Source: Squalus acanthias
Lineage: Eukaryota
Assembly: GCA_030390025.1 (NCBI GenBank)
Contig: CM059431.1
Coordinates: forward strand, 136,650,001 to 136,714,000
DNA: 64,000 nt
Direction: 5' to 3'
Shown here in pieces: positions 55,608 through 56,500 of this stretch; position 1 is the stretch's first letter, and each line of letters opens with the position of its first letter. A program made the position numbers and the translations under genes. Below the pieces are notes generated by a model, which was given only the letters and a program-made list of their open reading frames with translations, did not search any database and was not told the DNA's origin.

Positions 55608-56356
55608 CTATTACCCATCTCTGTACGGCCCCATAATATTACCCATCTCTGTACGGCCCCATCCTATGACCCATGTCTCTACGGTCCTATCCTATCACCC
55701 ATCTTTGTAAAGCGACATCCTATTTCCAATCTCTGTGTGGCCCCATCCTATTACCCATCTCTGTACAGCCCCATTATTTTACCCATCTCTGTACGGCCCC
55801 ATCCTATTACCCATCTCTGTACGGCTCTATCCTATTACCCATCTCTGTACAGCCCCATCCTATTACCCATCTCTGTACAGCCCCGTCCTATTTTCCATCT
55901 CTGTACGGCCCCATCCTATTACCCATCTCTGTATGGCCCCATCCTATTACCCAGCTCTGTATGGCCCCATCATATTACCCATCTCTGTCAGGCCCCATCC
56001 TATTACCCATCTCTGTACGGCCCCATCCTATTACCCTTCTCTGTACGGCCCCATCATATTACCCATCTCTGTATAGACCCATCCTATTACCCAGCTCTGT
56101 ATGGCCCCATCATATTACCCATCTCTGTCAGGCCCCATCCTATTACCCATCTCTGTACGGCCCCATCCTATTACCCTTTTCTGTACGGCCCCATCCTATT
56201 ACCCATCTCTGTATGGGACCATCCTATTACCCATCTCTGTAGGGTCCCATCCTATTACCCATCTCTGTACTGCCCCATCCTATTACCCATCTCTGTACGG
56301 CCCCATCCTATTACCCATCTCTGTACGGCCCCATCCTGTTTCCCATCTCTGTGCTG
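55608..56356. repeat. 28-bp satellite, terminal block
   Basis: Monomer resumes after the CR1 tail and ends at ...cccatctctgtgctgccc. Confidence 0.97.
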
Positions 56357-56500
56357 CCCTTTGCCGACATTATGGAAAGCCAAGGTTCAGCTTTCACATG
56401 TACACCGACAACACTCTGCTCCAATTCTCCACCACCTCCCTCGCTTCCTCCACTGACTCTGCTTTGTCACGCTACTTCTCCGACAGCCATCCTTGATAAG
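56327..56500 (+). mobile_element. Decayed L2-clade LINE RT fragment, continuous with the last satellite monomer
   Basis: Reads GPILFPISVLPFADIMESQG(-1 nt)SFHMYTDNTLLQFSTTSLASST, matching the L2 RT pattern [16 protein letters not shown]...[12 protein letters not shown]. Confidence 0.8.

What the first reader, a model, noticed from the sequence alone, without database searches (positions are those of the whole stretch)
56290..56500. The ~45-kb satellite appears to have been amplified from 28 bp of an L2 reverse-transcriptase motif, with the parent still attached
Seen: the array has no abrupt right end. The last monomer (GGC CCC ATC CTG TTT CCC ATC TCT GTG CTG CCC, from 56327) continues in frame into FADIMESQG, then after a 1-nt loss SFHMYTDNTLLQFSTTSL. 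Established: L2/CR1 RTs read [14 protein letters not shown]...(Y/F)ADD, and L2 typically has YMLPLGDII...[12 protein letters not shown]. The CR1 here shows GSVLGPQLFTIY at ~54595-54630. The monomer in this frame is GPILLPISV, which sits in register with GPLLFxIYM. Variants inside the array (ggccccCtcc, cctattTccc, tgtGCTgccc) look like ancestral L2 states. Inference: a 28-bp stretch of RT coding DNA was tandemly duplicated in situ and expanded about 1600-fold in this window. TE-derived satellites are known in general; I cannot tell whether this family has been described.
Basis: partly seen in the sequence, partly recalled or inferred. Interest (0 to 1): 0.85.

Follow-up and report, generated by a model that had tools for sequence, protein, structure and literature searches.

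The report
Tandem array born from LINE reverse-transcriptase DNA
A 60-kb block of 28-base repeats grew out of one short stretch of an old, decayed jumping-gene copy; this origin for repeat DNA is already known, but here it is unusually well preserved.

Summary
The array's last unit runs in register into a decayed L2-like LINE reverse-transcriptase (RT) fragment.

The core interpretation also holds: the 28-bp monomer is a piece of that RT.
- 26 of 28 other L2 loci align to the window from 56326-56330, the first base of the last unit.
- The monomer consensus finds its best match at that same RT site in 26 of 26 loci.
- One L2 lineage carries the unit once, between the same two flanks.

The claim that the parent is still attached here is only half true.
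- Array 1 is about 59.9 kb of repeats, starting 13.1 kb upstream of the window. It keeps only the 3' L2 half.
- Its left edge abuts the terminus of an LTR retroelement.
- A 2.5-kb sister array 35 kb downstream keeps both L2 halves.
- A third array, on an unplaced scaffold, keeps the 5' half.

The family is confined to these three related arrays. The birth was a one-off: 0 duplicated against 12,602 single-unit L2 sites.

Verdict: a new member of a known kind, TE-derived tandem DNA.

The parts
1..46014 (+). 28-bp tandem array, the larger part of array 1. Consensus unit: GCCCCATCCTATTACCCATCTCTGTACG. The array continues 13.1 kb upstream of the window, to C7:136636887.
   Evidence: TRF. I extracted 1,537 units here, with mean identity to the consensus about 93%.
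46015..55610 (+). Later insertion into the array: a full-length CR1-type LINE (76-bp 5' repeats, a GDSL-esterase-type ORF1, and an endonuclease+RT ORF2) carrying a nested Harbinger-type DNA transposon (DDE_Tnp_4 and Myb-like open frames on the minus strand).
   Evidence: Pfam: Lipase_GDSL_2 E = 3.5e-10; Exo_endo_phos_2 and RVT_1; DDE_Tnp_4 E = 4.7e-43; Myb_DNA-bind_5 E = 1.6e-7. The array is in register on both sides, with CTATTA/ATTA at both edges.
55611..56327 (+). The 28-bp array resumes; these are the last ~26 units of array 1.
   Evidence: TRF row 55608-56359, 26.9 copies; sequence read.
56328..56355 (+). Edge unit: the parent element's own copy of the 28 bp (GCCCCATCCTGTTTCCCATCTCTGTGCT). 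It keeps the L2 states G at position 26 and T at position 28.
   Evidence: 26 of 28 other L2 loci align to the window starting at 56326-56330. Alignment A1. Edge units listed.
56328..56360 (+). Two short direct repeats, GCCCC at 56328-56332 and GCCCT at 56356-56360 (GCCCC in the sister array and in other L2 copies). They start exactly 28 bp apart and bound the unit.
   Evidence: Read directly. The same spacing appears in the intact L2, the single-unit L2 copies and array 2.
56356..56860 (+). 3' half of the parent L2-like LINE fragment: RT from ...LPFADIM.. through SFHMYTDN (the decayed YADD box) to the end of L2 homology. It has a 345-bp internal deletion at about 56522 relative to its paralogues.
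   Evidence: BLASTP to P0004: E = 0.001 and E = 5e-7. BLASTN to L054 and L003. The deletion is inferred from L054:7970-8314 being absent here.
56859..56972 (+). 20-bp tandem repeat (5.8 copies), starting where homology to other L2 copies stops.
   Evidence: TRF. Homology to the single-unit L2 copy L003 ends at the equivalent of 56861.
56302..62079 (+). Segment duplicated with the array: the right flank shared with the sister array at C7:136741748-136748237, at 89.5-95.5% identity.
   Evidence: BLASTN of the window against L054 and L055.

Best explanation
What it is. A 5'-truncated, already decayed copy of an abundant L2-like LINE sat in a repeat-rich part of this chromosome. Inside its RT region, the 28 bases coding G-P-I-L-L-P-I-S-V lie between the GVPQGS and YADD motifs. 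They are bounded by two GCCCC pentamers whose starts are exactly 28 bp apart.

Proposed history:
1. Inferred: one slippage or unequal-exchange event between those pentamers made a 28-bp tandem duplication.
2. Inferred from the shared consensus: further unequal exchange expanded it. A derived variant (A at position 26, G at position 28, which creates a CpG) became the consensus.
3. Shown: the locus, already carrying an array, was then copied by segmental duplication at about 6% divergence. One copy, array 2 (2.5 kb), still has both L2 halves.
4. Shown as a structure, mechanism inferred: in the window's copy, array 1, the 5' L2 half was lost in a rearrangement whose breakpoint is the exact end of an LTR retroelement.
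5. Shown: array 1 then grew to about 60 kb, partly through recent kb-sized block duplications.
6. Shown: it later took a CR1 insertion, with a Harbinger element nested in it.

I see no sign of function. It behaves as neutral, methylation-decaying tandem DNA.
For: (1) Register.
- 26 of 28 L2 loci were retrieved with a query (56355-56500) that lies just past the 28-bp unit. They align to the window from 56326-56330, the start of the last unit; the other 2 start at 56366.
- Upstream of that point those loci read ordinary RT (..SGVPHGSILxP..), not array.

(2) Position test.
- The 28-mer consensus has its best ungapped match, over about 3.1 kb and both strands, at the same RT site in 26 of 26 loci, at 18-24 of 28 identities.
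- The mean maximum over 200 shuffles was 16.3-16.8. Shuffles reached the observed value 0 times in 17 loci, 1-5 times in 8 loci, and 22 times in 1 locus.

(3) Empty site.
- In L003/L061 the L2 is contiguous, with one unit.
- Its left part aligns to the left flank of array 2 (L061:5657-6179 ~ L054:4775-5317, 76.6%).
- Its right part aligns to the right flank of array 2 (L061:6148-7038 ~ L054:7775-8655, 84.0%).
- The two alignments overlap on L061 by 32 bp, which is the unit.

(4) Single origin.
- A dimer pattern with up to 2 mismatches gives 570 forward and 20 reverse hits genome-wide.
- All are accounted for by arrays 1 and 2 (569 plus 1 spanning a piece border) and array 3 (20).
- All three arrays have the identical consensus. 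Unit divergence within arrays (8.9-14.4%) is about equal to that between arrays (11.6-14.2%).

(5) Shared flanks.
- Right flanks of arrays 1 and 2: 89.5-95.5% identical over about 5.8 kb.
- Left flanks of arrays 2 and 3: 93.5% over 1.7 kb.

(6) One-off birth. At equal stringency, the duplicated-unit configuration of the typical L2 sequence has 0 hits and the single-unit configuration has 12,602.

(7) RT identity. P0004, from the same family, scores RVT_1 E = 1.3e-25. It aligns to the window's two frames.

(8) Growth. Blocks of 1 kb inside array 1 recur at lags 1847, about 3358 and 1813, at 99-100% identity. The background is about 88-93%.

(9) CpG decay. At positions 27-28, T is 15.3% and A is 13.6%.
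Against: - The microhomology step is inferred, not shown. A simple slip between the two GCCCC pentamers predicts T before each internal GCCCC. The consensus there has G (78%), with T at only 6.8%, so an early T-to-G change and its spread must be assumed.
- About 20 of the 26 L2 loci used in the position test are copies of one composite repeat. The number of independent L2 lineages tested is therefore nearer 5-7 than 26.
- The single-unit copies L003 and L004 are duplicates of each other, at 93.5% over 5.8 kb. They count as one lineage.
- L003/L004 share two 1-bp deletions with the parent. Their relation to the parent, as subfamily members or as an older duplicate, is unresolved.
- The L2 clade assignment was not tested against a TE library.
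Confidence: 0.9

Rival explanations
1. Chance abutment. A 5'-truncated L2 happened to insert beside, or into, a pre-existing unrelated 28-bp satellite. The monomer's likeness to L2 would then be coincidence or junction microhomology.
For: LINE copies are very abundant here: 193,394 first-look candidates for a 93-aa RT piece. The array has taken other insertions. Array 1 on its own has L2 on one side only.
Against: - Array 2 is flanked by the two collinear halves of one L2, which are contiguous with a single unit in L003/L004.
- The monomer's best match is at that exact site in 26 of 26 loci.
- No array of this monomer exists anywhere else in the assembly.
Confidence: 0.02
2. Mobile internal repeat. 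The LINE master copy itself carried a 28-bp internal tandem repeat, and the arrays were spread by retrotransposition and then grew.
For: Reviews describe satellites that arise from short internal arrays carried inside TEs (PMC12628747, passages read). A second tandem family, with a 32-33-bp unit from the same RT region, is dispersed over at least 12 contigs.
Against: - The three 28-bp arrays share non-L2 flanking DNA, so they were copied as chromosomal segments.
- 12,602 L2 sites carry one unit and 0 carry two at the same stringency.
- The closest L2 relatives have one unit.
Confidence: 0.04
3. The window's big array is the original birth site. Its 5' L2 half was later removed, and the small arrays are secondary copies that shrank.
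For: - Array 1 is by far the largest.
- Its left edge is a rearrangement breakpoint at an LTR terminus with no target-site duplication.
- Array 3 ends at ..CCCATC and array 1 starts at TCTGTAC.., which fit to the base into one unit. The two could be halves of one cut array.
Against: - The order of events cannot be read from present sizes. Recent 99-100% identical block duplications show that array 1 grew late.
- The fit to the base has roughly a 1-in-28 chance expectation.
- Either way, the common ancestor had both L2 flanks. This rival concerns which paralogue is older, not the origin.
Confidence: 0.3

Closest known systems
Satellite DNAs derived from LINE ORF2 pieces: chicken HinfI (SCR1) satDNA from CR1 (3' UTR plus partial ORF2), PROsat of Phodopus roborovskii (L1 ORF2), and Pvc20 of the harbour seal (L1 ORF2). 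Listed in the review PMC9659126 (passages and its table, read).
   Same: Tandem DNA whose monomer is homologous to part of the coding region of a non-LTR retrotransposon.
   Different: - The unit here is only 28 bp, which is minisatellite size.
- It comes from the RT palm region of an L2-like element.
- The family is confined to three paralogous loci rather than spread genome-wide.
- The birth site survives with both parental flanks and a single-unit relative.
I have not read the primary papers on those satellites.
Tandem repeats born inside TEs through short direct repeats: the Xenopus MITE cases (Xstir, miDNA4), and the NHEJ and NAHR models summarised in PMC12628747 (passages read) and PMC9659126.
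   Same: An internal TE segment bounded by short direct repeats of about 5 bp is tandemised and then expands by unequal recombination.
   Different: The host element is a dead LINE fragment, not a MITE. The expansion is not carried along by transposition. The microhomology step is inferred from the GCCCC spacing, not demonstrated.
Retrotransposon-derived satellites of plants, for example PisTR-A from the Ogre 3' UTR (PMC9659126 passages; PMC7004042 seen as a search listing and abstract only).
   Same: Arrays can be traced to a parental retroelement.
   Different: Those arise from hypervariable non-coding regions that are already repetitive within the element. Here the source is single-copy coding sequence in 12,602 detectable copies.
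A second tandem family in the same genome, with a 32-33-bp unit (CCTCCCTCCGTTGTCCAGCTCAGTGGGACTGC).
   Same: - It derives from the same L2 RT region, about 110 bp upstream, at the codons for ..VVQLSGTAL...
- It is flanked by L2 in register on both sides in locus L013.
- It is bounded by a short CCTC/CTC direct repeat.
   Different: It is dispersed: 214 dimer hits on at least 12 contigs. Arrays are of variable length, 3-41 copies of the core per locus in 20 of 30 loci. In L013, a CR1 piece follows the short L2 remnant; I did not check the other loci for it. Its L2 homology stops at the same point in 20 loci, which suggests spread as part of a larger duplicated block.

Membership tests
TE-derived tandem (satellite or minisatellite) DNA | Head-to-tail array of a defined monomer | tested here: met
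   TRF: period 28, 1,672 copies in the window. Unit spacing is 28 bp in 1,372 of 1,536 successive pairs.
TE-derived tandem (satellite or minisatellite) DNA | Monomer homologous to a defined segment of a transposable element, beyond chance | tested here: met
   Best match at the same RT site in 26 of 26 loci, with shuffle controls. 24 of 28 identities to the closest L2 lineage. Alignment A1.
TE-derived tandem (satellite or minisatellite) DNA | Array embedded between collinear halves of the parent element (birth site) | tested here: met
   Met at array 2. At the window's own array only the 3' half is present.
Classical satellite DNA (long arrays at many loci or chromosomes) | Many loci, or a substantial genome share | tested here: not met
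   All 590 dimer hits fall in three paralogous arrays totalling about 64 kb of a 3.7-Gb assembly. By unit length it is a minisatellite. Only array 1 reaches satellite size.
Non-LTR retrotransposon (LINE) reverse transcriptase | RT domain recognised by a curated profile | tested here: met
   A family member from the same genome (P0004) scores RVT_1 at 90.7 bits against a cut-off of 29.6. The decayed fragments themselves fail or fall below the cut-off: P0001 and P0002 give no hit, and P0003 gives 15.8 bits.
Non-LTR retrotransposon (LINE) reverse transcriptase | Endonuclease plus RT architecture in full-length relatives | tested here: met
   Homologues of P0004 carry PF03372/PF14529 together with PF00078. 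The best named hit is a Callorhinchus milii RT-domain protein at 62% identity.
L2 clade of LINEs specifically | Clade placement by phylogeny or by match to Repbase/Dfam L2 consensus sequences | not testable with these tools
   No TE library is available. The label rests on recalled motifs ([18 protein letters not shown]). A paper search for the motif strings found nothing. The family is distinct from the window's CR1: only 45% identity over 47 aa.
LTR retroelement at the left edge of array 1 | Two LTRs with TG..CA ends, a polypurine tract, a primer-binding site and pol domains | tested here: met
   - LTR pairs are 88-91% identical, except the C3342 3' LTR.
- TGTAGGC...CCCCTTACA ends, a polypurine tract AAGTGGGGGA, and TGGCGACCGCGG after the 5' LTR.
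- RVT_1, RNase_H, Integrase_H2C2 and rve in the C3342 copy.
LTR retroelement at the left edge of array 1 | Target-site duplication flanking an undisturbed insertion | tested here: not met
   The C7 copy is flanked by a 42-bp satellite (..GGAGAAAG) on the left and by the 28-bp array (TCTGTACAG..) on the right. The C3342 copy also has unrelated flanks. Both have therefore been rearranged.

The most novel reading that the evidence does not exclude
Old LINE copies may act as a predictable nursery for new tandem DNA in this genome.

- Two independent tandem families, with 28-bp and 32-33-bp units, were born about 110 bp apart in the same RT region of decayed L2 copies.
- Each is bounded by a 4-5-bp direct repeat, and each is still embedded in its parent.
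- The 28-bp case preserves the stages side by side: a single-unit relative, a 2.5-kb array with both parental flanks, and a 60-kb array.

If this region is intrinsically prone to such births, for example through C-rich direct repeats that stall or misalign replication, satellite birth could be studied as a measurable mutational process.
Probability: 0.2. Interest if true: 0.6.

Novelty: new member of a known kind. Interest (0 to 1): 0.45.

Why it matters
Satellites derived from transposable elements are well documented, but the first duplication is rarely recoverable. Here the source sequence, its bounding direct repeats, a single-unit relative, an array with both parental flanks, and a 60-kb derivative all survive in one assembly. 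That gives a clean worked example of how tandem DNA starts and grows.

It also gives a rate-like figure: 1 birth among about 12,600 detectable copies of the site.

For annotation, the 60-kb block should be labelled as a locus-specific LINE-derived array, not as a genome-wide satellite family.

Tried and rejected
- Read support for the array/L2 junction. Contigs of runs X1, X2 and X3 carry the repeat at high summed depth, and X7 laid nothing. No listed piece bridges 56355 with 31 or more letters on each side. X1 record 8 (200 nt, 56369-56568, no differences) covers the L2 flank and the 345-bp deletion point, but may come from the source sample. The junction is therefore not independently verified by reads. 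Its occurrence twice in the assembly at about 95% identity argues against a chimera.
- Hotspot test. A pattern for a duplicated typical-L2 unit gave 0 hits. The stringency is tight (2 mismatches in 29 specified bases), so diverged duplications could be missed.
- Pfam on the decayed fragments. P0001 and P0002 gave no hit, and P0003 scored RVT_1 E = 0.012, below the cut-off. I solved this by finding a better-kept copy, P0004.
- A protein search with P0003 against longer proteins found nothing.
- Literature. Monomer 20-mers, 0 papers. RT motif strings, 0 papers. A search on shark, satellite DNA, tandem repeat and LINE listed nothing specific. A search on LINE-2, satellite DNA and fish listed nothing relevant.
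- Earlier notes of this scan held nothing for this genome.
- No regular higher-order repeat. Ungapped autocorrelation only decays with lag, because of 27- and 29-bp units. The block duplications came from gapped BLAST.
- I tried to explain the two LTR-terminus/array junctions by a single inversion, a single insertion, or one provirus-provirus exchange. None fits both junctions. The C3342 3' LTR is an outlier, at 76-78% to the other three LTRs. This suggests a chimeric element, but the history is unresolved.
- The Pfam scan of the open frames in the 3' half of the C7 LTR element gave nothing meaningful.

Full report
**The observation**

The window holds a 28-bp tandem array at 1-46014. It resumes at 55608-56359 after a 9.6-kb interruption (TRF). 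From 56327 the last unit reads GPILFPISVLPFADIMESQGSAF in one frame. In the frame starting two bases further on (56329) it reads SFHMYTDNTLLQFSTTSLASSTDSALSRYFSD. The window's CR1 element carries GSVLGPQLFTIY at 54594-54629.

**Is the flank really a LINE RT?**

- The window's fragments are too decayed for Pfam. P0001 and P0002 gave no hit.
- The same LINE family is very abundant in this 3.7-Gb genome, with 193,394 first-look candidates.
- A better-kept copy on contig C19 gave P0004, which scores RVT_1 at E = 1.3e-25.
- P0004 reads ..[42 protein letters not shown]...
- It aligns to the window's two frames in order (E = 0.001 and E = 5e-7).
- Homologues of P0004 are endonuclease+RT proteins of fishes. 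The best named one is from Callorhinchus milii, at 62% identity.
No TE library was available to test it.

**Is the monomer part of that RT?**

I searched the genome with 56355-56500, which begins just past the last 28-bp unit. That returned 30 loci.

- Of the 28 loci that are neither the window nor its sister array, 26 align to the window from 56326-56330, the first bases of the last unit. The other 2 start at 56366.
- Upstream of that point those loci carry ordinary RT sequence, not array.
- The 28-mer consensus finds its best ungapped match, over each ~3.1-kb locus and both strands, at this same site in 26 of 26 loci (18-24 of 28 identities).
- Shuffled monomers averaged a best of 16.3-16.8. 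They reached the observed value in 0 of 200 shuffles for 17 loci, 1-5 for 8 loci, and 22 for one locus.
- One caveat applies. About 20 of these loci are copies of a single composite repeat, and L003 and L004 are duplicates of one another. The number of independent L2 lineages is therefore nearer 5-7.
- Independently, a 34-nt pattern for the site matches 12,602 places in the genome. It is a conserved part of an abundant element.

**The birth site**

The closest L2 lineage, L003/L004, reads CCCCAT(C/T)CTATTACCC(A/T)TCTCTG(A/C)ACTGCCCC once. That is 24 of 28 identities to the consensus unit.

A 2.5-kb sister array (array 2, C7:136739285-136741802) lies 35 kb downstream of the window's junction. 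It is flanked on the left by ...tccggagtcgccaatggacctgtgttc|GCCCCATCC... and on the right by ...GTGCTGCCCCTTGCCGACATTATG....

- Its left flank aligns to L061:5657-6179 (76.6%).
- Its right flank aligns to L061:6148-7038 (84.0%).
- The two alignments overlap on the single-unit copy by 32 bp, which is the unit itself. Alignment A1 shows all junctions in register.
- The unit is bounded in every L2 copy by two GCCCC pentamers whose starts are 28 bp apart. In the window these are at 56328 and 56356.

I infer that slippage or unequal exchange at this microhomology made the first duplication. The inference has a weakness. It predicts T before each internal GCCCC, but the consensus has G (78%) and T is only 6.8%. 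An early substitution that then spread must be assumed.

**One origin, three arrays**

- A dimer pattern (up to 2 mismatches) has 570 forward and 20 reverse matches in the whole assembly, against 0 for the reversed control.
- Counting the same pattern in the pieces I held gives 569 plus 1 border-spanning match for arrays 1 and 2, and 20 for an array on scaffold C3342. Nothing lies elsewhere.
- The three arrays have the identical consensus. Unit divergence is about the same within arrays (8.9-14.4%) as between them (11.6-14.2%).
- Arrays 1 and 2 share about 5.8 kb of right flank at 89.5-95.5% identity.
- The window's copy lacks 345 bp at about 56522 that both array 2 and L003 have.
- Arrays 2 and 3 share their left flank, including the L2 5' half, at 93.5%.

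So the array already existed, with its derived consensus, when the locus was copied.

**The left end of the window's array**

Stepping upstream places the left end at C7:136636887. The array is therefore about 59.9 kb of repeats, roughly 2,140 units.

- The flank is not L2. It is the 3' LTR of an LTR retroelement spanning C7:136628663-136636886. The LTR runs TGTAGGC...CCCCTTACA and is preceded by a polypurine tract.
- The paralogue on C3342 has a TGG... primer-binding site, plus RT, RNase H and integrase domains.
- There is no target-site duplication. The element's 5' flank is an unrelated 42-bp satellite.
- On C3342 the paralogous element's 3' LTR end abuts array 3 in the opposite orientation. 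The other end of that array carries the L2 5' half.
- Array 3 ends at ...CCCATC and array 1 begins at TCTGTAC.... Together these make exactly one unit.
- The C3342 3' LTR is an outlier, at 76-78% to the other three LTRs, which are 88-91% alike. The internal regions are 94% alike.

I read this as a rearrangement mediated by LTR elements that removed the 5' L2 half from array 1. I could not find a single event that explains both junctions.

**Later history**

- Array 1 contains kb-sized blocks that recur at lags 1847, about 3358 and 1813 at 99-100% identity, over a background of about 88-93%. It kept growing long after the ~6% duplication.
- There is no regular higher-order repeat.
- The CpG at unit positions 27-28 shows T 15.3% and A 13.6%, the pattern of methylated DNA.
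- The interruption at 46015-55610 is a full-length CR1 (GDSL-esterase ORF1, and an endonuclease+RT ORF2) with a nested Harbinger element (DDE_Tnp_4, Myb-like). The array is in register on both sides.

**Rarity**

At equal stringency the duplicated configuration of the typical L2 site has 0 matches against 12,602 single-unit matches. The birth was a one-off rather than a recurrent slip at this site.

**A second case**

While translating the L2 loci I found a different tandem family, with a 32-33-bp unit. It derives from the RT codons ..VVQLSGTAL.., about 110 bp upstream of the 28-bp site. In L013 it is flanked by L2 in register on both sides and bounded by a CCTC/CTC direct repeat. It has 214 dimer matches on at least 12 contigs. 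Copy number per locus varies from 3 to 41 core copies in 20 of 30 loci.

**Comparison with what is known**

Two reviews, of which I read passages only, list satellites derived from TE parts. These include LINE ORF2 pieces (chicken HinfI/CR1, PROsat, Pvc20) and microhomology-based models (PMC9659126; PMC12628747).

The monomer's 20-mers occur in no paper of the searchable library. This search does not cover supplements or subscription journals.

I therefore file this as a new member of a known kind. What is uncommon is the preservation: the single-unit relative, the small array with both flanks, and the 60-kb derivative all survive together.

**What is not settled**

- The L2 clade label.
- The exact first-duplication mechanism.
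- Which paralogue is oldest.
- The placement of scaffold C3342.
- Read-level confirmation of the array/L2 junction. Contigs of three runs carry the repeat, and one exact 200-nt contig covers 56369-56568, but no listed piece bridges 56355.

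Noticed in passing
L013:51-1346 (G000:C2317), L020:1779-3125 (C29), and 18 other fetched loci: A second tandem family derived from the same L2 RT region. The unit is 32-33 bp (CCTCCCTCCGTTGTCCAGCTCAGTGGGACTGC), about 110 bp upstream of the 28-bp site, and it is embedded in L2 in register. 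It has 214 dimer hits on at least 12 contigs, and arrays vary in length.
   Followed up: partly
window 46015-55610: A full-length CR1-type LINE inserted in the array: 76-bp 5' tandem repeats at 46014-46311, a GDSL-esterase ORF1 at 46871-47416, and ORF2 at 52936-55532 with one frame break. It carries a nested Harbinger-type transposon: DDE_Tnp_4 at 51046-51810 (minus strand) and a Myb-like open frame at 48906-49622.
   Followed up: partly
G000:C7:136628663-136636886 (L063, L051) and G000:C3342:243467-254795 (L058, L056): Two paralogous LTR retroelements with pol (RT, RNase H, integrase) and about 2.5 kb of further open frames with no Pfam match. Neither has a target-site duplication. Both have a 3' LTR terminus joined to the 28-bp array, in opposite orientations. 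The C3342 3' LTR is only 76-78% identical to the other three LTRs.
   Followed up: partly
G000:C7:~136500000-136628662 (sampled loci L037-L046, L063): A different satellite, with a unit of about 42 bp (GAGACATGGAGAATGAACTGTCTCTAACCGGGGACTGAAGAG), was seen at 9 of the 10 points sampled over at least 125 kb just upstream of the LTR element. The region is a mosaic of tandem arrays.
   Followed up: no
window 56859-56972: A 20-bp tandem repeat (AGGGGGAGAGAGGACATCGC, 5.8 copies), starting exactly where homology to other L2 copies ends. It may be the element's 3' tail repeat or yet another local expansion.
   Followed up: no
window 62025-63893, minus strand: Another L2-like LINE fragment in the opposite orientation. 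It has endonuclease-like and C-terminal open frames but apparently lacks the RT core. Pfam gave no significant hit for the two open frames I tested.
   Followed up: no
G000:C3342:~243330-243466 (L058:8330-8466): A tandem repeat of about 32 bp (ACTCAGGAACATCCTGTAAATACTGACACTC) directly upstream of the 5' LTR of the C3342 element.
   Followed up: no
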